Shown: piece by piece, positions 2,484 through 49,609 of the stretch
How the letters are laid out: every line of letters starts with the position of its first letter
Numbering within the stretch: position 1 is the stretch's first letter
UHGV virus genome: UHGV-0141727
Source: a virus
Length of the DNA: 64,000 nucleotides
Strand: one strand, 5' to 3'
Notes under the pieces: generated by a model
Database searches by the model: none
What the model was told of the DNA's origin: nothing
What the model saw: the letters and a program-made list of their open reading frames with translations, nothing else
Program-made: the position numbers and the translations under genes

Positions 2484-2551
2484 AGGACGTGACGGGGTTA
2501 GCAGACTGGCGTACATGAAACCAGCAGGCCGAAGCCTCCCCATCACGCCCC
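2484..2551 (-). ncRNA. c4: c4-like antisense RNA (module 1)
   Basis: 68 nt with a 14-bp closing stem (GGGGCGUGAUGGGG / CCCCGUCACGUCCU). Contains an AGGC-UUCG-GCCU hairpin and a CUGG/CCAG hairpin with an 11-nt loop carrying CAUGUAC. Single-stranded CUGCUAA follows, and 3' GCCA. The loop and single-stranded boxes are complementary to boxes at 2642-2636/2628-2622 and 2474-2468/2445-2438. Confidence 0.6.
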
Positions 2552-2583
2552 ACCATAATTTGGGCGTAACGTGGTTTACGGAC

Positions 2584-2614
2584 ACAAAAATACCGCAATA
2601 TCGGATATCTGCGG
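2584..2614 (-). terminator. terminator-like hairpin between the a1/b1 boxes and the c4-like RNA
   Basis: Minus strand CCGCAGAUAU-CCG-AUAUUGCGG followed by UAUUUUUGUGU. An analogous element is present in module 2. Confidence 0.4.
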
Positions 2615-2742
2615 TTGTCCGCATGTACATTCAGGCTGCTAAACCCGGTCGCAGAATTTGCTACGACGGCATGAATATAAGCCTGAACATTAGAAAGATC
2701 AACAGAATTTTTATCAGATGCTGTTTTTTTGTGACGATGTAA

Positions 2743-2788
2743 ATCATACATTCCTGATTAGAAACATCAATTTAATTTTCTAACACAC
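2743..2788 (-). promoter_or_regulatory. promoter-operator of immI-like module 1
   Basis: Minus strand GTGTGTTAGAAAAT-taaaTTGATGTTTCTAATCA-ggaatg-TATGAT. The -35 is TTGATG (2770-2765), the -10 is TATGAT (2748-2743), spacer 16. The palindromic operator overlaps the -35. Confidence 0.6.
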
Positions 2789-2842
2789 AATTACGAGCGA
2801 TGATTTTTCCGCCGCACGGTTATTGTACAGTCAATCGCAACA

Positions 2843-3802
2843 TCATCCCCGAAAGCCCTCCGGAATTGACCAGTCTTCCCGGTCAAATTCAGACCGATAG
2901 CCACGCTGTTTCATCTGGTCAAATGCTTCATTGATGGTTGCACATCCCTGGGAACCAGAATAATCCATAGAGAAATCCAGGGCGCTGGATCGTTTGGGCT
3001 TATTCACCGTGGTAGCACTACGTATCCATGCAAATTTTTTTGCCAGTTTTTCAGCGGTACGATACAGAGCCTGCCGTTTTGCGTACCCCTCGTCTGAACG
3101 ACGCTTTGCAGCTCTCGCTTTTGCCGCCGCCAAACAGTGGTTGGTATGTTCTTCCCTGATTACTGTTTTTTTATCCAGCAAGCCATTATCCGCTTGAGAA
3201 CTATCTGCTGGTGAAGCCTTTGGCTGAACCGCGCATGATCTTTCTCTTCTTTTGGCTATAGAGTGACTCTTATTTTCTATTGGCTGTTCATTTTGAACAT
3301 GGGGGGACTTGTTCAATTTGAACAGGGGGTGCCCAGTTTCAAAAAAATAACGAACCTTTGAAATCAACTGCTTAACCAGTTTTGTGGCGTTGGCAAATTT
3401 GATGCCCTGCTTACTCCCTATCTCCATTGCTACATGAATGAAGTGGAGAAATTGTGTTGTAAACCGGTACACGTTACACACCTGAGCATTGTTATTCGCT
3501 ACCTGATGCTGCTTAACAAGCATTCCGCACTTCGTCGCTTCGGTAAATGCCCGGCGCACAGTAGAAATACTGCGTCCTGTAATCTCGGACATATCAGCAT
3601 ATGAGCGACGGATCATGTATTCATCGGTAGCTCCTGCCAGGTTGGCGAACTCGGCAATAATGGCGCTATGTGAAGGGGAAAGAAAACCGCTATGACGAGC
3701 AAAAAAACTCAACTGATGACCTTTGATTTTTTTGTGGTATTCAGTGTTGTTTTTATACTCAGAAGTGTTGAAAGTTACTGGAACTGAATTTAAAATACTC
3801 AT
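2843..3802 (-). CDS. winged-helix DNA-binding protein of unknown role (possible RepL-like initiator or regulator)
   Basis: 319 aa. HTH-like SYADMSEITGRSISTVRRAFTEATKCGMLV with a basic C-terminal half. Lies between two operator sites; own putative promoter with ATAGATTT direct repeats at 3810-3860. Confidence 0.4.
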   Translation of the reverse strand: MSILNSVPVTFNTSEYKNNTEYHKKIKGHQLSFFARHSGFLSPSHSAIIAEFANLAGATDEYMIRRSYADMSEITGRSISTVRRAFTEATKCGMLVKQHQVANNNAQVCNVYRFTTQFLHFIHVAMEIGSKQGIKFANATKLVKQLISKVRYFFETGHPLFKLNKSPHVQNEQPIENKSHSIAKRRERSCAVQPKASPADSSQADNGLLDKKTVIREEHTNHCLAAAKARAAKRRSDEGYAKRQALYRTAEKLAKKFAWIRSATTVNKPKRSSALDFSMDYSGSQGCATINEAFDQMKQRGYRSEFDREDWSIPEGFRG

Positions 3803-3863
3803 CAGATAGTTCCGTGAAAAATCTATCTACCGTATAAATCTATGCCAGTGGATTTATACACCC

Positions 3864-3896
3864 AAAAGCCGCTACTCAGCGGCTTTTGCTTTTTTG
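3864..3896. terminator. bidirectional rho-independent terminator
   Basis: AAAAGCCGCU-ACUC-AGCGGCUUUU hairpin. Tail is UUUUGCUUUUUU on plus and a U4 tail on minus. Confidence 0.55.
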
Positions 3897-3970
3897 GCAG
3901 TCGCTACCGGAGCAGTGACCGCGATCCTACTCGATCACGTGCCGTCGGATCAACAGTGTATAAAAACACA

Positions 3971-4004
3971 CTGTGTTAGAAAATTAAGCTAGCTTTTAGC
4001 TCAC
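3971..4004. promoter_or_regulatory. operator site (strong left half, degenerate right half)
   Basis: CTGTGTTAGAAAAT at 3971-3984 is identical to the left arm at 42127-42140. The right half CTTTTAGCTCAC matches the consensus at 7/12. Confidence 0.45.
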
Positions 4005-4999
4005 ATCCTCTTAGACACAAAGATCAGCGGAGTCACCGTCTTGTTCTCTTTCACCGGTATTTCTTGTTGTTTATTGGCTGATATTGGCAGACCATAAGTG
4101 GCATTAGCCCCTAGGGATTCAAGCATCGCTGCGACAATGCGTGCATCATCCTCTGACTGCATACGGCAGAGCGCCCGGCGCTGTTCTGCGCTGATAAAAA
4201 CAGGCATTTCCTGGATAGCATCACGCAAAATACGGCGGCATTTCTTCGCGTTCTCCCCCTGGCTTTCCATCATCGCGGCCTGGTCGCGTAGTTTGTCGCG
4301 AAGCTGCATATTTTCCACTTCAAGATGTATCAGTTCCGATTCCAGAGCTTCACGCTGTGCTGATTCAATCATTGCTTGTTGACTTTGCATTTGTGCAAAG
4401 TGATGAACAATATCTGTAGCCTGATTGTCAGTGAAACCTTGATCCATCAGCGACGTGTGCATAACAGCTTCACGCTCTTCAACGGACTCCATCATCGGTA
4501 TCTGTTTATCGAGGCTGATATAGTTCGGCACGGTAACGTAATCAAATCCATGAAAGGAGTTTACTATTGACACGAAAGAATCAGGTCCAATAGTCGCCCA
4601 TGACCAACCGCCAGCATTTGAGTTGATCAATCCTTGAACAATATGCCCTGTATATGAATCAAGAATTTCTTGGGTGTGCGTAATGACACCATTATCGTCA
4701 ATAGAAATATCAACTGTTCTGTTAGATGGCACATTTTCCAGAAGAAGAGGCTTACCATCCATCATAACAACGCAAACCTCTGGCAAATCTAGTGATTTAG
4801 TTTTGTTGTAATACATCGAGCGGCGACCATGACCGTAATATCCAAATAGCTCACCAAGAGCCATGCGCTCTTTAACTAGCGGTGATGTTATGGTTTTTCG
4901 CACAGCCTCAATAATGTATTTTCGGTTGTTCTGCGGTGTATGTTTGCGGATTTTCTCTACCAGGGAGAAGCGATCCGTAACGGTATTCAGTGATTGCAT
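4001..4999 (-). CDS. putative prohead protease/scaffold (P1 Pro position)
   Basis: 332 aa immediately downstream of the portal gene, with a C-terminal coiled-coil-like region (ELIHLEVENMQLRDKLRDQ). Call rests on position. Confidence 0.45.
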   Translation of the reverse strand: MQSLNTVTDRFSLVEKIRKHTPQNNRKYIIEAVRKTITSPLVKERMALGELFGYYGHGRRSMYYNKTKSLDLPEVCVVMMDGKPLLLENVPSNRTVDISIDDNGVITHTQEILDSYTGHIVQGLINSNAGGWSWATIGPDSFVSIVNSFHGFDYVTVPNYISLDKQIPMMESVEEREAVMHTSLMDQGFTDNQATDIVHHFAQMQSQQAMIESAQREALESELIHLEVENMQLRDKLRDQAAMMESQGENAKKCRRILRDAIQEMPVFISAEQRRALCRMQSEDDARIVAAMLESLGANATYGLPISANKQQEIPVKENKTVTPLIFVSKRM

Positions 5000-20270: not shown

Positions 20271-23200
20271 TTAATCCTCCAGTAATTTGTCAAGAGATGG
20301 GTCATTGATAGTCGTGCTGGCACGCTGACGAGGTTGTGGTTGTGATGTGTTCACAACTTTGTCCTGATCGCCTTTGCGGTTGTCTTTGCTTACGCCAAGA
20401 ATCTCTTTGAGAACGGAATAAACGTTCTCCAGTGCTTTCAACATAGCCGGATCGTTATTTGCGGTATCTGTTGTTAGCATCTGCCTTATTCCGCTTCGAG
20501 CGAGGTCCGTGACGGTTGGTAGCTGAGGAGGCATTGCAAGGAACGGTTCTTTAGCAGCCACGCCCGAAGCAAACAGGCTTTGATTGATTGCGCCAGTCGT
20601 GTCCCTGATCGTATCCGCCGTTTTCTGTATGCCACCATTCAGCCAGCCGCCAACACTTCTTGTTAACGGACTAATAGCGCGAGCAACATCGGTATTCTGT
20701 CCAGAGGACTGCAATACAAAGTCATTTAACATTCCGGTGCTATCGATACCGCCAACAAGTCGCGAGAGGTTATCTCCAACGGCGGGGAGGACGGCGGAGC
20801 CTACCTGTTTAAGCCCTGACACCGTTGAATCAAATAGCGAGCCAAAGAAGCCCCTGTCCTCACCTTCAACCACCTTGTAGCCGTTGTCGTAAATCTGCAC
20901 ACCCGCCGGTGTCGATGTGGCACGCTTCCCGCTGATGGTTGCCGGACTCTCCGGAAGCAGGTCAATGGTTTCTGTATCGCGGTTAACGTTGCGCTTTTGC
21001 TGTATAGCCGTAGTGATATCGGCGATCTGTTCCGCCTTCTGGAAACTAAAGTTTTTGCCCGTTGCTCTGGATATTTTTTCAACAAGGAACTTATCCAATT
21101 GCTTGGCTTTTGCTGCTAACGAGGACATCTCTTCCGGAGAACTGACAGGGCCGAGATTTAGCCCCATATTGGGATCTCCCCCAACTATCCCGGCGATGAC
21201 GCCCCCAACACCGTCTGCACTCATTAACCGATCCGTCAATCCGGCTGCGGCGGAAGAGTTGCCACTAGCTTTCGCGTGGCTGATCGCCTGGGCATTTTCC
21301 TGTTGAGCCGCCTTCGGTTTTTTAGCTGCCTGTGCGTGTTGAACCACATCAGTAGGGGTAGGCATTACAGCCTGGGCTACGCTTGACGCAGGAATAGCAG
21401 AAGATGAGCCATTGGCGTATTTGACTTTGCTACCGACACTATATTGGGAGTTGCGAGCGATTAGAGGACCGCCCTTTTCCTTCTGGATTTTATTAATGTG
21501 TTCCAGCGTTTCATCATTGAATTGCCCTTCCCAACGCCCAGTTTTAGCGTTGAATGAACCAAGAGCTGTTTTGATGAAATTGTTGTTAACCGCCGGGTTC
21601 CCCCCCTCCTTCGTCGCAATAGCGCGAACAAGGTGCGTCATAACTTCAGGGTTACTAACGTCTATTTTATCGTTGGGGGATACCCCTAGATATTTGCTGA
21701 CGTTTTCAATGTACTGATTGGTGTTGTTCTCTGTTGGTGGTGCCCATTTTGAAATGATGCTGGATACTGTTTGCAGCTTCTGATACCCGGCGGCAGCACT
21801 TGTACCGTTGTAATAACTCGATACCTGGTTTGCCAATGCCCGAATCCCTTCTTCGGGCGTATTAAACCGCGCAAAACGCTGTTCGCCTTTCGCGTTCGGC
21901 GCTTCCAGTACCGCCCCCTCCTGATTTGCAAAAACCAGGTTCCCCAGGTTGTTATTCCGGTAATTCCTGTTCTTGGCGTTGCTTCCGCCTATATTCAGAT
22001 CAGCCGTTATTGTATTTTTTTCAGGCGCTTTAAATTCGTCTGGCGATTTGTAGCCGTGTTCACCCACGCCATCCTCACCTCTGCGCCCGCCCTGTAGCTG
22101 TCGGGCCAGATCATTAATTGCGGCTACCGTTTGCTTGGTGCCATCTTCAACGGCTTTCTTAACCTGCGCAGTGCCTTCGCTGCTTGATGAGAACGATTCT
22201 TTTAGGCTGCTGAATGCGTTCTTCGACGCGTCGATAGAACTATTTATGCCGCGAGCGATATTGCTGGTATCAAGACTCTGAAGTTTTTGTCCGACACCTT
22301 CAAAGCCTAGCGCGGACATCCCCTCGCCAATGAGGTTAGCCGCTCCCGTCACCAGACCGCCCATATCCAGGACGTTAGCAGCGGCGTAGGCGCTCTTTTG
22401 CTGTGTTGTAACGTCCTGCCCTTCCTTCAGGTTATAAGTCGCCCTCTGCGCTTCTGTGTCGCTGTAGCCGTCTACGGCATCATAACCAACCATAGCCACC
22501 TGGCCGATGACTGGAATCGCCCTGAATCCGGCCCTTGCGGCAACACCTCCGGCAGCTTTGAGAGCCACTTTTCCAGCTTCTTTTTTCGCGATGTTTTCAC
22601 CAGTGGCAACGGCAACCTTACCCGCCTCTTTCCTGGTAAGGCTTTCCCCAGCGGAAGTTGCCGCTTTACCAGCGTCTTTCCCTGCCGCTCCACCAGCCGC
22701 CGTTTTGGCTACGCTTTCTTCAGTGACCTTACCTGCTCTGGTTTTAACTGAAGATTTATCACCCGATGATTTTGGTGAGGTACTACCCTCGTTCCCACCA
22801 GCATTTTTTGTCCGATTTTTTTCCTCGCCCGCACTGTTGTTTTTGCCTGGCTGATTTTTTTTCCCCTCTTTGCCTTCCTGACTCCTGCCCGTCTCAGTAG
22901 GTTTGCTGGTGTTTTTTCCCTTCTTGCCCTTGTTTTCTTTACTGTCTCCAGTGCGGCCCGTGTTGCCACCACGTGCACTGCTACGACCGCGTGTAGGGGA
23001 TATTTTGGAACGTAATCTGCCACCGCCGAGGAGGTCGCTCAGTTTTAGCCCACTCTCCTGCGACTTTCGTAGTTTCCGGATCTCTTCGGATACAGTTTCC
23101 AGCTCATCAATTATCTGGCTGTCGTTGCGTTGAAGAACTTTCGTTTGTTCTTCGATCGCACGTACAGATTTTTCTTTAACGGCTTCAGTAAATGCCTTTG

Positions 23201-24134
23201 CTGAACCGGGCGCGTTATCTGGAGTCTTCCTTTCATTGTCAGGTGCCGGGTAAGTAATGGCGGGGGCTTTTGCGACCACCGGTGCGCCAGCCGCCTTGTC
23301 GTTGCCATTATCTATCCATTCTTTCAATGATTTAGCCTTACCAGTAATCTCGCGGCTGATATCAAATACGCCCCGTGCTGCCATCCATAGTGGACCACCA
23401 GCCCCTACCCCGGCAGCATCGGTTACAGCTCCATCGTCGGCTTTCCCTGAACCATCAACCCCCATAATGGAACCGAGTTTTCGCAGGAACCCAACCTGTA
23501 GTTTTGCCTGTGCGCGTAGCTCATTCTGGCGTGCGAGATCCTCGTTTTTTTTCTGAGAGGCAAATCGTCCGTTGCTATCCCGTAACGGTGCACCAGAGGT
23601 GCTCTGGCTTTCTCTAACTGGTTGTTCTTGCCTTGCAGGCTGAATGTCAGGAGTGAGCAACTGAATGCGCTCTGGCGATGACTTCGTGGCTTTGCCTTCA
23701 GCCAGTGGTGCTGTTTTTGATTCCGAATGAGCGGTGCGGTGATCTGCTGCTGCTTTTTGCGGATTATCTATCTCGCTAGTGTTGTTTATACGTAATCTCT
23801 GTTTCCTGGTAGGGAGCCGGTCTTTATACGGCCCCTGTGTGAAACTGTTGCGTTGCGCCCCTGCTTTCCCTGTTCGGGCCAAGCGACGACTTACGCGTCC
23901 TTGTGGTGCGTCGCTGGTATCAGGATTGCGTCCGTAAGACTCAAGTGCTTTTTTTATTTCTGAAAGCGCAGCTAGCTCTTTCGCGTTTGCCGTTTGTATT
24001 GCGTCGATTATCGCTATTCGGTCTTTTTTATCGTTCAAAATAACCTCACTTACATCGGCGGTGATCACCCTGTTTTTTTGGCGTGGGCTTTGTATTTCTC
24101 TTCCAGTGCTTTTTCCATATGGAGTGCCCGCCAC
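20271..24134 (-). CDS. tape measure / structural injection protein (P1 Sit-like) with cell-wall-hydrolase-like domain
   Basis: 1287 aa, GTG start. Long Gly/Lys/Ala-rich low-complexity core. Contains the RNNNLGNL...FARFNTPEEGIRAL module seen in virion-associated muralytic proteins. Precedes the baseplate genes. Confidence 0.65.
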   Translation of the reverse strand: MAGTPYGKSTGREIQSPRQKNRVITADVSEVILNDKKDRIAIIDAIQTANAKELAALSEIKKALESYGRNPDTSDAPQGRVSRRLARTGKAGAQRNSFTQGPYKDRLPTRKQRLRINNTSEIDNPQKAAADHRTAHSESKTAPLAEGKATKSSPERIQLLTPDIQPARQEQPVRESQSTSGAPLRDSNGRFASQKKNEDLARQNELRAQAKLQVGFLRKLGSIMGVDGSGKADDGAVTDAAGVGAGGPLWMAARGVFDISREITGKAKSLKEWIDNGNDKAAGAPVVAKAPAITYPAPDNERKTPDNAPGSAKAFTEAVKEKSVRAIEEQTKVLQRNDSQIIDELETVSEEIRKLRKSQESGLKLSDLLGGGRLRSKISPTRGRSSARGGNTGRTGDSKENKGKKGKNTSKPTETGRSQEGKEGKKNQPGKNNSAGEEKNRTKNAGGNEGSTSPKSSGDKSSVKTRAGKVTEESVAKTAAGGAAGKDAGKAATSAGESLTRKEAGKVAVATGENIAKKEAGKVALKAAGGVAARAGFRAIPVIGQVAMVGYDAVDGYSDTEAQRATYNLKEGQDVTTQQKSAYAAANVLDMGGLVTGAANLIGEGMSALGFEGVGQKLQSLDTSNIARGINSSIDASKNAFSSLKESFSSSSEGTAQVKKAVEDGTKQTVAAINDLARQLQGGRRGEDGVGEHGYKSPDEFKAPEKNTITADLNIGGSNAKNRNYRNNNLGNLVFANQEGAVLEAPNAKGEQRFARFNTPEEGIRALANQVSSYYNGTSAAAGYQKLQTVSSIISKWAPPTENNTNQYIENVSKYLGVSPNDKIDVSNPEVMTHLVRAIATKEGGNPAVNNNFIKTALGSFNAKTGRWEGQFNDETLEHINKIQKEKGGPLIARNSQYSVGSKVKYANGSSSAIPASSVAQAVMPTPTDVVQHAQAAKKPKAAQQENAQAISHAKASGNSSAAAGLTDRLMSADGVGGVIAGIVGGDPNMGLNLGPVSSPEEMSSLAAKAKQLDKFLVEKISRATGKNFSFQKAEQIADITTAIQQKRNVNRDTETIDLLPESPATISGKRATSTPAGVQIYDNGYKVVEGEDRGFFGSLFDSTVSGLKQVGSAVLPAVGDNLSRLVGGIDSTGMLNDFVLQSSGQNTDVARAISPLTRSVGGWLNGGIQKTADTIRDTTGAINQSLFASGVAAKEPFLAMPPQLPTVTDLARSGIRQMLTTDTANNDPAMLKALENVYSVLKEILGVSKDNRKGDQDKVVNTSQPQPRQRASTTINDPSLDKLLED

Positions 24135-24188
24135 TGCGGTAATTGTTCAACGTCACTAACTGGCTGGTAGCCGTATAACGTCAGGTTA

Positions 24189-25010
24189 TTAATAATGGTT
24201 AGCCATCCATTCAGATCTAATTGATGGGATAAACTCTCTATTGAGAAATGGGGCGTACAGCGTGGTAGTCACGTCTGCACCCTCCTTAGCGTTTTTGCAG
24301 CGTTGTGGCGGTAGGATCAGGCGGCTTGTGCCTCGTTCAATAGCCATTTTTAAGCCGTGGCGAAGGTCTTTCTGCATGAGCTGAATGCGAGCTACCAGAG
24401 GGGTAAACTCGGTTTCCAGTGCCATGTTTTCAATGATATCGAATCGTCTGTTTGCAGCTTGTGTGAAGTCTTCTGGATCGTCGTTCAGAGATGTACACAA
24501 GGCCAACTCAGCTATGCGGAGACGAGCAACCTCAGCACTGTACTCTGGAGTTTTCATATCAGGCAAAGTGGCGCGCATACGTTCAAGCAATTCAGCGCCT
24601 TTCCCTGTTAATGGTTTAAGCGTCCACTCGGTTGGTACTCCGTTTATAGGGACCATAGTTTTAATAAACGGCGGGACAGTCAGGATTTCTACCGTTTCGG
24701 CAAGGTCTGAAAGGTTAATATCTGCGTGATGAACGTTTCCACAGTGACCACACTCGTATGAGTAAGTCATTACGGCATCTGGTCTGGAATTGACAAAGAT
24801 CCACCAAAGCGCGGTTCTGCGATCCTGAACTGTCCAGTTTGAGCTGTCGTTAATTTCGCCGTCTTGCATGGCGTTGAGGTATTCTGTTGTGGTTGCCTCG
24901 TCTTCTGCCGGATTGATGTCTGAATATTTCAGGGCATCTTTCACAGTAGGTGCATGAAACTGAATTTCTATTTCAGGCTGTGAAGGCAATGGGAATTTGG
25001 GAATGTTCAA
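24189..25010 (-). CDS. structural/assembly protein upstream of tape measure (unknown)
   Basis: ORF 24189..25136. A GGAGGA SD 4 nt before TTG at 25010 is the favoured start, because the longer ORF would run into the origin (DnaA box/GATC cluster). Contains CGHCGNVHH. Confidence 0.4.
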   Translation of the reverse strand: MNIPKFPLPSQPEIEIQFHAPTVKDALKYSDINPAEDEATTTEYLNAMQDGEINDSSNWTVQDRRTALWWIFVNSRPDAVMTYSYECGHCGNVHHADINLSDLAETVEILTVPPFIKTMVPINGVPTEWTLKPLTGKGAELLERMRATLPDMKTPEYSAEVARLRIAELALCTSLNDDPEDFTQAANRRFDIIENMALETEFTPLVARIQLMQKDLRHGLKMAIERGTSRLILPPQRCKNAKEGADVTTTLYAPFLNREFIPSIRSEWMANHY

Positions 25011-25081
25011 GGATTCCTCCAGAAAAGTCGGTACTCGTTTGGCTGGAGGATAGGGAGTGTGTGATTTTGACTTTAACCTAT

Positions 25082-25330
25082 TTATCCACAGGGTAGATCC
25101 AATAAATAGATCCCAAAGAGAACCAGTAAGATCCAAAGAAGATCCCGGATCGCTGCGAGCCGCGCCATCACTGGCCTAAATGGAGATCAACATTGACTAT
25201 GTGCGATTTAATGTTGACTATGTGCGATTTTATGTTGACTGTACGCGATTTAATGTTGACTATATGCGATATAAACATTGACTGTATGCGATAATTCTCT
25301 CAGCCCTCAGACGGCTGTGGATAAGTATCT
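25082..25330. other. plasmid replication origin, P1 oriR-like
   Basis: Perfect DnaA boxes TTATCCACA at 25082-25090 and (complement) 25316-25324. Five GATC sites at 25097-25151 inside (A/T)AGATCC heptamers. Five iterons at 25190-25292. Confidence 0.75.
25190..25292 (+). repeat. five direct RepA iterons (incC-like), 21-22 bp phasing
   Basis: A(C/T)(A/G)TTGACT(A/G)T(G/A)(T/C)GCGAT at 25190, 25211, 25232, 25253 and 25275. Confidence 0.9.
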
Positions 25331-25372
25331 TTCATTTGGCTATAAAGCCCCGTCAATCAAGGAAATAACAGG

Positions 25373-26257
25373 ATGGTAGATGACAAAAAAGGCTTTCTGA
25401 ACGTTGAGGAAATATCAGGGAATACCGGAGAAATCCACAGCTTAAAGCCTAACAATAATAGCACTATTCAGCCGATAGCTTTGTTGCGGCTTGGGGTGTT
25501 TGTTCCCACATTGAAATCTACCAGTGTTGCTTTACGTCGCAAGAACGCCGGTTTAACTAACTCCACTGATGCGACAGAAGAACTGTCCAGCCTGAAGATT
25601 GTAGAGCAGGAAGGGTATCAGGGTATTGAGATTCATGGGCCACGTCTGGATATGGATACTGATTTTAAGGTGTGGATAGGCATTACATCTGCATTGTTTG
25701 ACTATAAACCAGATAATGATGGTGTGATCACCCTGACATTCTCTGAATTTGTGGATCGTTGCGGTTATCCAAGGAAGCGGCTGTCCAAGGCTTTTCGCAA
25801 GAGCATTGGCGACTCTCTAACGCGTATTCAGCAGACGTTGCTGAAGTTCAACTTGCCCACCAGCAAAGAACATGTTCGTTATATCCAGATGAATTTATTG
25901 GCATTTAGTGAACTTGATACTGAAAATGACATTATAAGAATCCAACCGCAGAAGCAGTTGTCTGAGTTGTATTACGTTGACTATAAGCGAATATTGAAGC
26001 TCAAAATGCTCGATAAACTTGGCAGGAAAGAGACAGCCAAGGTGCTTTATACGTTTTTCGAAGCGTTACCTTCAAACCCTGCGCCAGTGAGTATTGAGCG
26101 CCTTCGCGCCAGATTGAACCTCAAATCATCGGTTAGCGTTCAGAACAGTGTGATTCGTAAAGCCATGAAAGACTTGGAAGCTGTTGAATATCTTAAATTT
26201 TCAGAGATAAAGAATGGTCGGAAAATAGGTTTCCAGATCCATAAACGAAATCCATAA
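25373..26257 (+). CDS. repA: plasmid replication initiator RepA (P1 RepA family)
   Basis: 294 aa. TIQPIALLRLGVFVP and GPRLDMDTDFKVWIGI match recalled P1 RepA motifs. Flanked by iterons; AAGGAA SD. Confidence 0.9.
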   Translation: MVDDKKGFLNVEEISGNTGEIHSLKPNNNSTIQPIALLRLGVFVPTLKSTSVALRRKNAGLTNSTDATEELSSLKIVEQEGYQGIEIHGPRLDMDTDFKVWIGITSALFDYKPDNDGVITLTFSEFVDRCGYPRKRLSKAFRKSIGDSLTRIQQTLLKFNLPTSKEHVRYIQMNLLAFSELDTENDIIRIQPQKQLSELYYVDYKRILKLKMLDKLGRKETAKVLYTFFEALPSNPAPVSIERLRARLNLKSSVSVQNSVIRKAMKDLEAVEYLKFSEIKNGRKIGFQIHKRNP

Positions 26258-26486
26258 CATTGACTGTGTGCGATTCCAAGCGTTGACTATACGCGACAAA
26301 CATTGACGCTGGCGGATTTAGTTATTAACTTTTTCACATGATCAATGGATAAACCAGCTATTTCATTGAGTATTTGTCGCTTATAGTCAATCTTTCCTCA
26401 TTTCTTGTCGTGTGTAGTCAATGTTTTGTGATCGGGATCGAGTACAGTCAACATTAGTTGTAAGCCATTTCGCCTATAGTCAACAT
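26257..26486. repeat. incA-like iteron array downstream of repA (3 direct + 4 inverted)
   Basis: Direct copies at 26257, 26280 and 26300. Inverted copies (..GTCAATGT/GTCAACAT) at 26376-26393, 26407-26424, 26437-26454 and 26469-26486. Confidence 0.8.
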
Positions 26487-26502
26487 TTCTCCATCAGCAG
26501 TC

Positions 26503-26796
26503 TTAAGGGCAATTTCTACACCTCTCTGTAGGTGTAGGATTTGCCCTTAAAGATGGGAGATTGAGGGCAATTCTTACACCATTAGTGAGTTGGTTGGAGC
26601 TTTAACGGCTAACATCATTTGTAATTTATTGATTAATAAGTAATGTGTAAAAATCACCCTCAGATAGCATCGTATGTTATAGCTATTTTTATAGCACACC
26701 TGTTAAGTGTTTTTTGAATGTAACTCATTGATTTTGTTGTGATGTGTAAAAAATGCCATCATTGACGTAAACAGCAGGTGTAGAAATTGCCCTCAA
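26503..26796. repeat. second, unrelated 19-20 bp repeat family (6 copies) around an AT-rich core
   Basis: Consensus TT(A/G)AGGGCAATTTCTACACC. Copies at 26503-26522 (+), 26531-26550 (-), 26561-26580 (+), 26644-26662 (-), 26743-26761 (-) and 26777-26796 (-). The first two form a 20-8-20 palindrome. Confidence 0.7.
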
Positions 26797-26837
26797 GTTT
26801 GCCCCTTCCCCACCTTCTCGCACTTTAATATTGCATT

Positions 26838-27575
26838 TCAAAACTTGATCACGTTGCTGGCGGCGCTTTTAAGTGCGCTTGTTGCTAAACCAGCAGCTCC
26901 ATTGACTAATGCGGACAGGCCGGAACCAGCAGATGTGTATCGCTGGAACGTGATCGGATAGGACAAGAATTCGGACACCTGATCACGTGAGCGGCTGATC
27001 TCTCCTATCTGAGTAGGAAATACACGCATTTCCTCTTCCAGCTCTTTCCCGCCTTCCTGTGTAACGCGGTATAGCCTGATATTCATGAGATAATCTGGCG
27101 GCAGGTTTAGCGTACCATCGCTATTGGTTACACGGGCGCGGCGCTCCTTGAACCAATTCATTATTTTGCCGTCTTCTGTGTCTCTGACCGTCATTGTTAC
27201 CGGTCCGGCGGTTACGTGCGTTGGCTTATTGAACTCGACGCTACCAATGATTTTGCTTTCTGTTTCAATATTCCCGCTACTGTAAGTTATGTCCTTAACG
27301 AACATATCAAAGCCGCTTAATCCGTCTACATCTACCGTCCACTGCCAGCCCTGGGCATAGCGGATACGCATAGCCGTAGCAACTACGTTCTTTCCGTAAG
27401 CGATGTCATTGCCATAGCTCCCACTAACGCCACTGCCAGACACCGCTCTATCCAGAATGTCGCTGATAAGGTTGCTGGTGAATGATTTCGCGCTAAACGA
27501 TACCGCACTGGCTAGCGTTTGCGTTGCAGCACTAAAAATACTCACGTAGCCCTCCGTGTTAAAAAATGGTAGCAC
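26838..27575 (-). CDS. virion structural protein (unknown)
   Basis: 245 aa in the operon with sheath/tube-like genes; overlaps the upstream gene. Confidence 0.35.
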   Translation of the reverse strand: MLPFFNTEGYVSIFSAATQTLASAVSFSAKSFTSNLISDILDRAVSGSGVSGSYGNDIAYGKNVVATAMRIRYAQGWQWTVDVDGLSGFDMFVKDITYSSGNIETESKIIGSVEFNKPTHVTAGPVTMTVRDTEDGKIMNWFKERRARVTNSDGTLNLPPDYLMNIRLYRVTQEGGKELEEEMRVFPTQIGEISRSRDQVSEFLSYPITFQRYTSAGSGLSALVNGAAGLATSALKSAASNVIKF

Positions 27576-48955: not shown

Positions 48956-49609
48956 TTAAAGTATCACGGTATCCTCATCAACTTCTTTCCCTGCCAGTGA
49001 CTTTGGCTGGGAGGCTGCTGCTTTAACCTTCTCATGCCCAATAATGGACAGGAACGAGGCCATTATCCCTGCTTTGTTTTCTTTCTCTACCGCTCCTGTC
49101 ATTTGTTTCAGGTAATCCGCGCTGGCAACATTGTGGTATACCGTTGCATAGCAGCACAGAATCATCAGGATGTGCTCTGGTCGGATATCTTGCCAGTTAA
49201 CTCGATAAACCTCTTCACCGTTGCCGTTGTATTCGGTATCGACGATAGAGTCGGGGATCTCAAATGCCCCTTTGTTCTTGTCAGGCAGGGATAGCAGCCT
49301 TTGTAGTTTCAGCTCCCGGTATCTTTCCATGCCGACAATGATCGCCGCTCTGCCGTCGGCGTGCCGTGTTTTTAATGTTACCTGACTGGCACCTGTACCG
49401 GCTGAAATGGTTGGCGTGATTTCGTCAACCAGCACCTTAAATTCACTTTTACGCAGCTCGGCAATTGCTGGTGGAATTTTTCGTTTTTGTTCAATAGCAG
49501 ATGCAGGGAGCGGCTTTACTTTGTCAATTACAAGCGCGCCGTCTTTCAGGACTGCCGTAGCCATCAGCGGCTTGTTAGTCGAAAGGCTGAATATTGCGAT
49601 CTTTTGCAT
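48956..49609 (-). CDS. hypothetical protein
   Basis: 217 aa. Preceded by a minus-strand terminator, so probably has its own promoter. No family recognised. Confidence 0.5.
   Translation of the reverse strand: MQKIAIFSLSTNKPLMATAVLKDGALVIDKVKPLPASAIEQKRKIPPAIAELRKSEFKVLVDEITPTISAGTGASQVTLKTRHADGRAAIIVGMERYRELKLQRLLSLPDKNKGAFEIPDSIVDTEYNGNGEEVYRVNWQDIRPEHILMILCCYATVYHNVASADYLKQMTGAVEKENKAGIMASFLSIIGHEKVKAAASQPKSLAGKEVDEDTVIL

What the first reader, a model, noticed from the sequence alone, without database searches (positions are those of the whole stretch)
26503..26796. Orphan array of six 19-20 bp repeats around an AT-rich core, adjacent to the replicon
Directly after the incA-like iterons lies a second repeat family, TT(A/G)AGGGCAATTTCTACACC. 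It is unrelated to the RepA iterons, the immunity operators and both par repeat sets.

There are six copies. Two of them form a 20-8-20 palindrome at 26503-26550. The other four bracket about 180 bp of very AT-rich DNA (26580-26760).

No protein in the window is obviously cognate. Candidate roles are a second (lytic?) origin, a centromere for a factor encoded elsewhere, or a remnant or novel control site at the position where P1 carries its parA promoter and parS.
Basis: seen in the sequence. Interest (0 to 1): 0.6.

Follow-up and report, generated by a model that had tools for sequence, protein, structure and literature searches.

The report
Leftover iteron array from replaced replicon
The six repeats are real: they are binding sites (iterons) for the replication initiator that phage D6-like plasmid prophages normally carry, stranded here when that initiator gene and its origin were swapped for a different replicon, so this is an evolutionary leftover of a known kind of control element and not a new system.

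Summary
There are four strong and two degenerate copies of TTRAGGGCAATTTCTACACC at 26503-26796, and none elsewhere in the 64 kb.

The window is a phage D6-like (P1-related) plasmid prophage. In phage D6 and about 100 related plasmids, a 252-aa Rep_3 initiator (D6 RepB) sits at this locus, between pmgB and tub. The same 20-mer is its iteron:
- five tandem copies plus one more lie at a DnaA-box/AT-rich origin upstream of the gene;
- one copy lies inside the gene;
- a 5-6-copy array starts on the stop codon.

This is the layout of P1 oriR-repA-incA.

In the window, a p0111-like oriR-repA-incA cassette (25068-26492) has replaced the D6 origin and repB. It left the last 14 nt of repB and the whole downstream array. 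No D6 RepB is encoded in the window or in the closest complete relative.

Other carriers of the new cassette have lost parts of the array (deletions of 99 bp or 58 bp). D6-RepB plasmids almost always keep it intact. D6 itself retains P1-type iterons from an earlier IncY-type cassette at this locus.

Verdict: an orphaned incA-like control array, most likely an inert relic. It may still bind D6 RepB supplied in trans. Modest interest.

The parts
25068..25372 (+). Origin (oriR) of the resident p0111-like replicon. It holds DnaA boxes at 25082-25090 and 25316-25324, six GATC sites at 25096-25185, and five tandem resident iterons (TCGCNNAYAGTCAAYNTT type) at about 25186-25292. Position 25068 is the left edge of the replacement cassette.
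   Evidence: The left breakpoint against L002 is at window 25067/25068. The region is 77% identical at DNA level to the oriR-rep of p0111-type P1-like plasmids.
25373..26257 (+). Resident initiator, a 294-aa Rep_3-family RepA of p0111 type. It is not cognate to the array.
   Evidence: Pfam Rep3_C and Rep3_N match. It is 85% identical in protein to the RepA of JL22, SJ46 and RCS47 and 41% to P1/P7 RepA. BLASTP finds no similarity to D6 RepB.
26256..26487 (.). Resident incA-like iterons downstream of rep294, in both orientations. The replacement cassette itself ends at 26492.
   Evidence: The right breakpoint against L002 is at 26492/26493.
26493..26506 (+). Relic of the 3' end of the displaced D6-type repB: AT CAG CAG TCT TAA, that is ..(Y)QQS-stop. 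The stop codon overlaps iteron 1.
   Evidence: Alignment with L002, L003 and L005, where this is the end of the 252-aa RepB ORF.
26503..26522 (+). D6-type iteron 1 (TTAAGGGCAATTTCTACACC), left arm of the 20-8-20 palindrome.
26531..26550 (-). D6-type iteron 2, right arm of the palindrome.
26561..26580 (+). D6-type iteron 3.
26622..26634 (-). IHF-consensus site 1 (reverse complement of WATCAANNNNTTR), at the start of the first 99-bp repeat unit.
   Evidence: Only 5 consensus matches occur in the 64 kb, and 2 of them are here. The site is conserved in L002 and L003. 76.9% of its columns are invariant across three lineages. IHF binding is inferred, not shown.
26644..26663 (-). D6-type iteron 4 (degenerate: CTGAGGGTGATTTTTACACA).
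   Evidence: PWM score 21.8. It holds the same position in every D6-RepB locus examined.
26721..26733 (-). IHF-consensus site 2, at the start of the second 99-bp repeat unit.
   Evidence: (repeat D2).
26743..26762 (-). D6-type iteron 5 (most degenerate: ATGATGGCATTTTTTACACA).
   Evidence: PWM score 17.7. Its position is conserved.
26777..26796 (-). D6-type iteron 6.
26838..27575 (-). tub (major tail tube protein gene), the right-hand backbone flank of the replicon locus.
   Evidence: Homolog of D6 orf43, annotated 'major tail tube structural protein, similar to P1 tub'.
24189..25136 (-). pmgB homolog, the left-hand backbone flank of the replicon locus.
   Evidence: D6 orf41 is annotated 'similar to P1 pmgB'. 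The flank is 99.4% identical to L002 up to window 25067.

Best explanation
The array is the downstream (P1 incA-like) iteron cluster of the D6-type RepB replicon. It was left behind when the D6 origin and repB gene were replaced by a p0111-like oriR-repA-incA cassette.

Native context (phage D6 and about 100 plasmids). The 252-aa Rep_3 initiator has three sets of iterons: 5+1 at the origin upstream of its gene, one inside the gene, and 5-6 in this array, which starts on its stop codon. By analogy with P1 incA and F incC, the downstream iterons bind the initiator. They hold copy number down by titrating the initiator and by pairing ('handcuffing') with the origin iterons. The two conserved IHF-type bends may help the looping.

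In this window. The cognate initiator and origin are gone. The resident plasmid replicates from its own complete p0111-like replicon. The array therefore has no role in resident replication.

It is most likely a neutral relic. Its only latent activity would be to bind D6-type RepB if a D6-type plasmid prophage enters the same cell.

Shown versus inferred.
- Shown: the identity of the repeats with D6 RepB-associated iterons, the cassette boundaries, the absence of a cognate Rep, the decay in sister lineages, and the analogous older relics.
- Inferred: Rep binding, the copy-control function in the native context, IHF binding, and inertness here.
For: (1) Cassette boundaries. Against plasmid AP027414 (L002) the window is 99.4% and 98.5% identical on the two flanks. 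It differs only by replacement of L002 4938-6007 (origin plus repB) with window 25068-26492. The array itself is 100% identical to L002's.

(2) Same repeats in the native replicon. All 17 D6-RepB loci whose sequence includes the upstream region show 6 iterons upstream of repB and 1 inside it. All 19 D6-RepB loci show 5-6 iterons downstream at fixed offsets: -3(+), 25(-), 55(+), 139(-), 237(-), 272(-) relative to the end of the stop codon. The upstream region has a DnaA-box-like site, AT-rich DNA and GATC sites. The array has none of these.

(3) Same plan as P1. The P1 record annotates oriR (DnaA site, Dam sites, 5 incC iterons), then repA, then 9 incA iterons. The first incA iteron abuts the repA stop codon, and incA is labelled an incompatibility determinant.

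(4) A gene relic. The last 14 nt of repB, including the stop codon, remain at 26493-26506.

(5) No cognate Rep. tblastn with D6 RepB finds nothing in the window (E > 1) or in the complete 94-kb relative CP085065 (best E 0.5). No further iterons occur in either.

(6) Phylogenetic footprint in the native context. Invariant columns: iterons 86.7%, IHF-like sites 76.9%, spacers 24.3%, p = 1e-25.

(7) Decay once orphaned.
- The CP085065 lineage lost a 99-bp unit (It4 plus one IHF-like site). This lineage comprises that plasmid, further E. coli records and one IMG/VR contig.
- CP042620 lost 58 bp (It1-It2).
- By contrast, 100 of 105 PLSDB records matching the D6-type array carry it over at least 80% of its length. 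Nearly all of those listed are full length in one piece.
- 0 of 19 D6-RepB loci examined show such a deletion.

(8) Precedent at the same locus.
- D6, L003, L005 and L006 keep 2-3 P1/IncY-type iterons between the D6 array and tub.
- An IMG/VR D6-like contig (L045) carries a full IncY-type cassette there. Its last incA iteron is exactly that retained sequence.

(9) Published background. Replicon-type switching among P1-like phage-plasmids has been reported (PMC11165635: 17 inferred changes on a tree; PMC9603915: a p0111 rep replacing the IncY repA in JL22).
Against: No experiment shows that D6 RepB binds these repeats, or that the downstream array controls copy number. Both rest on analogy with P1 and F.

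The window's array is complete and identical to that of a D6-RepB plasmid. Within this lineage there is therefore no positive sign of decay. Identity could equally reflect very recent recombination or selection.

The decay argument rests on only two independent deletion events in three lineages.

Only 64 kb of roughly 94 kb is in the window. The absence of a cognate Rep in the remainder is inferred from a relative.

The AT-rich core with IHF-type sites is not typical of P1 incA. It leaves room for the array being a second origin in its native context.
Confidence: 0.8

Rival explanations
1. The orphan array is kept by selection as an incompatibility or exclusion determinant. It would titrate or handcuff the RepB of incoming or co-resident D6-type plasmid prophages. 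That would lower their copy number and displace these closest competitors, while the carrier replicates from an unrelated initiator.
For: Cloned iteron clusters act as incompatibility determinants, and P1 incA is annotated as one. The window's array is intact, with all six iterons and both IHF-like sites. Retention of a predecessor's iterons has happened at least twice at this locus. The 100% identity of the array to that of a D6-RepB plasmid suggests the two types have met and recombined.
Against: Two of the three lineages carrying the new cassette have deleted parts of the array. The older P1-type relics in D6 are degenerate, with PWM scores of 17 and 24 against a maximum of 31, and they are absent from the window's lineage. 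This is the pattern expected of neutral decay. At low copy number, six iterons in trans may have only a weak effect. No co-occurrence data could be obtained.
Confidence: 0.13
2. The array is a second replication origin that still fires in this plasmid. Its features are an AT-rich core, flanking inverted iterons and IHF sites. It could be a lytic origin, or an origin used by a host or phage factor other than D6 RepB.
For: The core is 69% A+T. Two conserved IHF-consensus sites are present. Iterons flank the core in inverted orientation.
Against: - There is no DnaA box and no GATC cluster.
- There are no tandem, helically phased iterons.
- In native replicons a canonical origin (DnaA box, AT-rich stretch, five iterons at 22-bp spacing) lies upstream of repB.
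- The complete relative has a separate lytic replication gene.
- The resident replicon is complete without the array.
- Sister lineages tolerate deletions inside the core.
Confidence: 0.04
3. The array is a partition centromere or an operator set for a DNA-binding protein encoded elsewhere on the element.
For: It is a clustered set of inverted and direct repeats with an IHF-type site. This superficially resembles P1 parS, which contains an IHF site.
Against: In about 100 relatives the identical 20-mer forms the tandem repeats between the DnaA box/AT-rich DNA and the repB start codon, and it also occurs inside repB. No other copy exists in the window or in the complete relative, including near the parM/parR-like and ParA-like loci.
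Confidence: 0.02

Closest known systems
P1 incA (nine RepA-binding iterons downstream of repA; copy-number control and incompatibility determinant)
   Same: Both are clusters of roughly 19-20-bp initiator-binding repeats in mixed orientation that begin at the stop codon of a Rep_3-family initiator gene. In both, the origin upstream has a DnaA box, AT-rich/GATC DNA and five tandem iterons (one search compared).
   Different: The iteron sequence differs: no P1-type iteron is found in the window's array. There are six copies and not nine. Two IHF-consensus sites and a 69% A+T core are present, and P1's annotation of incA lists neither. In this window the cognate initiator and origin are absent.
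Phage D6 orf42 replicon (D6-type RepB; MOB-suite rep_cluster_1704)
   Same: The array is homologous to the DNA directly downstream of D6 orf42: 69% identity overall, with the iterons conserved. The locus is the same, between pmgB and tub.
   Different: D6 encodes the 252-aa RepB and its upstream origin, and the window does not. The D6 GenBank record annotates orf42 only as 'similar to P1 repA?; putative plasmid replication initiation' and marks no iterons. PMC6799933 mentions only 'repB associated with iteron sequences' in pYU39_89.
Replicon-type switching in P1-like phage-plasmids (IncY versus p0111; for example phage JL22)
   Same: A whole ori-rep cassette is exchanged within a conserved phage backbone (PMC9603915, PMC11165635). 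The incoming cassette here is of p0111 type: 85% protein identity and the same iteron consensus.
   Different: The backbone here is D6-like and the displaced replicon is the D6 type. The switch left the predecessor's control iterons in place. pO111_2, a P1 backbone carrying a p0111 rep, shows no left-over P1 iterons.
F plasmid incC and RepFIB downstream iterons
   Same: Rep-binding repeats downstream of the initiator gene act as negative control elements (established knowledge, not tested here).
   Different: Sequences are unrelated, and those arrays sit beside their cognate rep gene.

Membership tests
Downstream control-iteron array of a Rep_3 iteron replicon (P1 incA / F incC type) | The repeats have the same consensus as the origin iterons of one replicon. 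| tested here: met
   In D6-RepB loci the same 20-mer occurs as 5 tandem copies plus 1 upstream of repB and as 5-6 copies in the downstream array.
Downstream control-iteron array of a Rep_3 iteron replicon (P1 incA / F incC type) | The array lies immediately downstream of the initiator gene. | tested here: met
   In relatives, iteron 1 overlaps the repB stop codon, as P1 incA copy 9 abuts the repA stop. In the window only the last 14 nt of repB remain in front of it.
Downstream control-iteron array of a Rep_3 iteron replicon (P1 incA / F incC type) | The cognate initiator and origin are present in cis. | tested here: not met
   There is no D6 RepB homolog and no further iteron in the window or in the complete relative CP085065. 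The array is therefore a member by descent and an orphan by context.
Downstream control-iteron array of a Rep_3 iteron replicon (P1 incA / F incC type) | The array binds the initiator, lowers copy number and exerts incompatibility in trans. | not testable with these tools
   This needs gel-shift or footprinting assays plus copy-number and incompatibility assays.
Iteron-plasmid replication origin (oriV) | A DnaA box or boxes next to an AT-rich unwinding element. | tested here: not met
   The array has no DnaA box within one mismatch and no GATC site. Both are present in the upstream regions of the resident and D6 replicons. The core is AT-rich at 69%.
Iteron-plasmid replication origin (oriV) | Tandem iterons in the same orientation at about two helical turns. 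| tested here: not met
   The array's iterons are in mixed orientation at irregular start-to-start spacings of 28, 30, 83, 99 and 34 bp. The upstream D6 set has 22-bp spacing.
P1/IncY RepA iterons | Match to the 19-bp P1 iteron. | tested here: not met
   A PWM built from the 14 annotated P1 iterons finds nothing in the array. The best hit in the window scores 16.6, at 49169.
Partition centromere (parS/parC) | Repeats adjacent to, or shared with, a par operon. | tested here: not met
   There is no other copy in the 64 kb. The par loci of the complete relative are 10-12 kb away and carry no such repeats.
Known structured RNA (Rfam) | A hit at gathering score. | tested here: not met
   Only sub-threshold miRNA-model hits to the palindrome were found, at 28 bits against a gathering score of 84.

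The most novel reading that the evidence does not exclude
Retained predecessor iterons are not junk. They would be selected 'decoy' incompatibility determinants. Each time a D6-like phage-plasmid changes its replicon, it would keep the control iterons of the old one. These would sequester the initiator of its closest competitors, which still use the old replicon, giving one-way plasmid exclusion. Under this reading the pmgB|tub locus records successive rounds of such competition: IncY-type, then D6-type, then p0111-type.
Probability: 0.13. Interest if true: 0.6.

Novelty: new member of a known kind. Interest (0 to 1): 0.33.

Why it matters
It settles the finding: the 'orphan' repeats have a clear pedigree and need no new protein or mechanism.

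It also shows three further things.
- D6-like plasmid prophages have one locus (pmgB|tub) where at least three unrelated-specificity iteron replicons are exchanged as cassettes: IncY-type, D6-type and p0111-type.
- Each exchange left the tub-proximal iterons of the predecessor. This gives a readable order of events.
- A D6-like backbone can carry a p0111-type replicon. That matters for replicon-based typing of phage-plasmids, which the papers I read treat as P1 = IncY or p0111 and D6 = repB.

If the leftover iterons still bind D6 RepB, such hybrids would be one-way incompatible with ordinary D6-type prophages. This is a simple, testable idea about competition between related phage-plasmids.

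Tried and rejected
- **Megablast against phages** found nothing for this region. Only a distant search recovered D6.
- **Rfam** gave only spurious sub-threshold miRNA hits to the palindrome.
- **Promoter and terminator scan** found nothing above shuffle expectation in the array. The palindrome is not followed by a T-run, so it is not an intrinsic terminator.
- **Naming error, corrected.** I first called the 252-aa Rep 'p0111'. In fact p0111 is the 294-aa RepA type of pO111_2, JL22 and SJ46, and the 252-aa protein is D6-type RepB.
- **Invertible-segment or MITE reading.** I considered 27-nt inverted arms flanking 252 bp. I rejected it because the arms are the same iterons found in tandem at the D6 origin.
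- **IMG/VR pattern search.** Thirteen of 29 hits were unrelated single matches.
- **Gilcrease & Casjens 2018** (the D6 genome paper) is not held in the library.
- **Orphan P1 iterons in a P1-backbone p0111 plasmid (pO111_2)** were looked for and none found. Relic retention is therefore not universal.
- **Co-occurrence data** for P1-type and D6-type elements were sought in 10.1101/2025.09.12.675607 and not found.
- **Higher conservation of repB than of its flanks** is what a coding gene would show anyway. I did not use it as evidence of cassette sweeps.

Full report
**1. The observation**

The region 26503-26796 contains six copies of a 20-bp unit. Four are strong: 26503(+), 26531(-), 26561(+) and 26777(-).

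I built a position weight matrix (PWM) from window and relative copies. It scores these four at 29.9-33.2. It also recovers the two degenerate copies, 26644(-) at 21.8 and 26743(-) at 17.7. Nothing else in the window exceeds 12.8.

Other details of the array:
- Copies 1 and 2 form the 20-8-20 palindrome.
- The stretch 26580-26760 is 69.4% A+T, against 52.4% for the window.
- Copies 4 and 5 each end a 99-bp imperfect direct repeat that begins with a match to the IHF consensus WATCAANNNNTTR. Only five such matches exist in the whole window.
- No ORF of 50 aa or more lies in the array.
- There is no Rfam family, promoter or terminator signal of note.

**2. What the element is**

The flanking genes match phage D6:
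- sit (20271-24134, -)
- pmgB (24189-25136, -)
- tub (26838-27575, -)
- pmgC and bplB further on

The window is therefore a D6-like member of the P1/D6 group of plasmid prophages. Its close relatives are 90-94-kb non-mobilizable E. coli and E. marmotae plasmids.

**3. The key comparison**

Plasmid AP027414 (L002) is 99.4% identical to the window up to 25067 and 98.5% identical from 26493 onward. The DNA in between differs entirely. L002 has 1070 bp holding a 252-aa Rep_3 initiator and its upstream region. The window has 1425 bp (25068-26492) holding a 294-aa Rep_3 initiator with its own repeats.

The 252-aa protein is the initiator of phage D6 itself (orf42) and of about 100 PLSDB plasmids from Escherichia, Salmonella and Shigella.

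- five tandem copies at 22-bp spacing sit just upstream of the repB start codon;
- a sixth copy sits across an AT-rich stretch that contains a DnaA-box-like site and GATC sites;
- one copy lies inside the gene;
- the downstream array starts on the stop codon, with copies at fixed offsets.

This is the plan of P1. Its GenBank record annotates oriR (DnaA site, Dam sites, five incC iterons), repA, and nine incA iterons. The first incA iteron abuts the repA stop codon, and incA is labelled an incompatibility determinant.

The window array is thus homologous, copy for copy, to the incA-like array of the D6-type replicon. It is 100% identical to L002's array.

**4. Orphan status and direction of the event**

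The window keeps the last 14 nt of repB (..QQS-stop, 26493-26506) in front of the array. So the D6-type replicon was there first, and its origin and gene were replaced.

tblastn with D6 RepB finds nothing in the window (E > 1). D6 RepB and Rep294 show no BLASTP similarity.

The closest complete relative with the same cassette is CP085065 (94,191 bp). It has no D6 RepB homolog and no D6-type iteron outside the array.

**5. The resident replicon is complete on its own**

The cassette has two perfect DnaA boxes, six GATC sites and five tandem iterons (TCGCNNAYAGTCAAYNTT). These are followed by rep294 and a downstream incA-like set.

Rep294 is 85% identical to the RepA of JL22, SJ46 and RCS47 and to that of a p0111-type P1-like plasmid. 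It is only 41% identical to P1/P7 RepA. The iteron consensus matches the p0111-type plasmid.

I had first mislabelled the 252-aa protein as 'p0111'. pO111_2 itself carries the 294-aa type. A 2025 preprint states that the D6 replication gene is not in the common typing databases (10.1101/2025.09.12.675607).

**6. Function in the native context**

Three lineages that are about 70% identical overall were compared (window/L002 type, D6/L003 type, L005 type). The fraction of invariant columns is:
- 86.7% in iterons
- 76.9% in IHF-like sites
- 24.3% in spacers (Fisher p = 1e-25)

The iterons and the two bend sites are therefore what selection preserves next to a cognate RepB.

The array lacks a DnaA box, GATC sites and phased tandem iterons. 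The upstream region has all of them. I therefore read the upstream region as the origin and the array as the control locus (titration and handcuffing, as for P1 incA). This step rests on analogy, not on an experiment.

**7. What happens once it is orphaned**

Among carriers of the p0111-like cassette:
- only the window has the full array;
- the CP085065 lineage lacks exactly one 99-bp unit (It4 plus an IHF-like site). It includes CP173545, CP173569, CP165739, OZ121093, a further RefSeq record and IMG/VR contig L014;
- two members of that lineage (L001, L007) also carry a substitution at a conserved position of It2;
- CP042620 (L006) lacks 58 bp (It1-It2). This is the spacing of the direct repeats It1 and It3.

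By contrast, none of the 19 D6-RepB loci I examined has such a deletion. Of 105 PLSDB records matching the D6-type array, 100 carry it over at least 80% of its length. Nearly all of those listed are full length in one piece.

This is what relaxed constraint predicts. It rests on two independent events, though.

The window's perfect identity to L002's array most simply means a recent recombination between a cassette carrier and an L002-like plasmid, with the array serving as right-hand homology.

**8. A second, older layer**

In D6, L003/L004, L005 and L006, the 50-100 bp between the D6 array and tub holds two or three P1/IncY-type iterons. They score 17-28 on a PWM built from the 14 annotated P1 iterons. 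P1's own iterons score 18-31, and background is 16.6 or less. No IncY RepA is present at those loci.

An IMG/VR contig with a D6-like backbone (L045) carries a full IncY-type cassette at the same locus:
- its RepA is 84% identical to P1 RepA;
- it has five upstream and seven downstream P1-type iterons;
- its tub-proximal incA iteron is the sequence retained in D6.

The locus has thus hosted at least three cassettes. Their relics give the order IncY-type, then D6-type, then p0111-like. L006 shows all three layers.

Replicon-type switching in P1-like phage-plasmids is already documented (PMC11165635; PMC9603915). I did not find the left-over iterons, or the D6-backbone/p0111-type combination, described in the papers I could read.

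**9. Rivals**

- A selected 'decoy' incompatibility function remains possible. Iteron clusters do exert incompatibility, and the window's array is intact. The deletions in sister lineages and the degenerate older relics fit neutral decay better.
- A still-active second or lytic origin is unlikely. There is no DnaA box, sister lineages tolerate deletions in the core, and repL lies elsewhere.
- A centromere or operator role is contradicted by the repeats' place in the D6 origin and by the lack of other copies.

**10. Verdict**

The feature is real and correctly described. It is an orphaned incA-like iteron array of the D6-type RepB replicon, left by a replicon swap.

It is a known kind of element in an unusual, stranded state. 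Interest is modest. The main added value is the stratigraphy of replicon swaps at one locus and a testable one-way incompatibility prediction.

Noticed in passing
L039 (phage D6 MF356679) 2854-2895; L005 5340-5442; L003 5353-5394; L006 5653-5694: Phage D6 and many D6-like plasmids carry 2-3 P1/IncY RepA-type 19-bp iterons between their own iteron array and the tub stop codon, with no IncY RepA at the locus. They appear to be relics of an earlier IncY-type cassette. They are absent from the window's lineage.
   Followed up: partly
L045 (IMGVR_UViG_2778261667_000006) 3394-4759: A D6-like backbone (sit, pmgB, tub, pmgC) carries a complete IncY-type oriR-repA-incA cassette at the pmgB|tub locus. 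Its RepA is 84% identical to P1 RepA, and it has 5 + 7 P1-type iterons. The locus therefore has at least three alternative replicon cassettes.
   Followed up: partly
L003 4493-4517 (inside D6 repB); same position in all 17 D6-RepB loci that include the whole gene: One D6-type iteron-like sequence (AGATGTATAATTTGCCCTCTG) lies inside the repB coding region. It is conserved in position. Its role is unknown.
   Followed up: no
window 26620-26662 and 26719-26761: This is a 99-bp imperfect direct repeat. Each unit is an IHF-consensus site followed by a degenerate iteron. Unequal crossover between the two units explains the 99-bp deletion in the CP085065 lineage.
   Followed up: yes
window 25068-26492 compared with L040 (NC_017653.1) 2500-3930: The resident cassette shares its iteron consensus (TCGCNNAYAGTCAAYNTT) and 85% Rep identity with p0111-type replicons of P1-backbone plasmids, but only about 77% DNA identity. 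Replicon typing tools may miss it or mistype it. MOB-suite calls it rep_cluster_2164 and calls the P1-backbone relative 'IncHI1B'.
   Followed up: partly
window 20271-27575, minus strand: In this family the plasmid replicon sits between tub and pmgB, which are neighbours in the P1-type gene order indicated by the D6 annotation. If no promoter precedes pmgB, late transcription from tub towards pmgB and sit would have to cross the whole replicon antisense to rep. I did not examine this.
   Followed up: no
L006 3895-3960 and L045 3380-3440, compared with window 25060-25082: The left junction of the p0111-like cassette in CP042620 has about 28 extra bases. These bases resemble the left end of the IncY-type cassette in L045. 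This suggests the cassettes share, or recombine within, the DnaA-box/GATC part of oriR.
   Followed up: no
NZ_CP061103.1 and NZ_LT906557.1: Two D6-RepB plasmids match the array in two separate places (query positions 1-295 and 1-282). This may reflect an insertion within the array. I did not inspect them.
   Followed up: no
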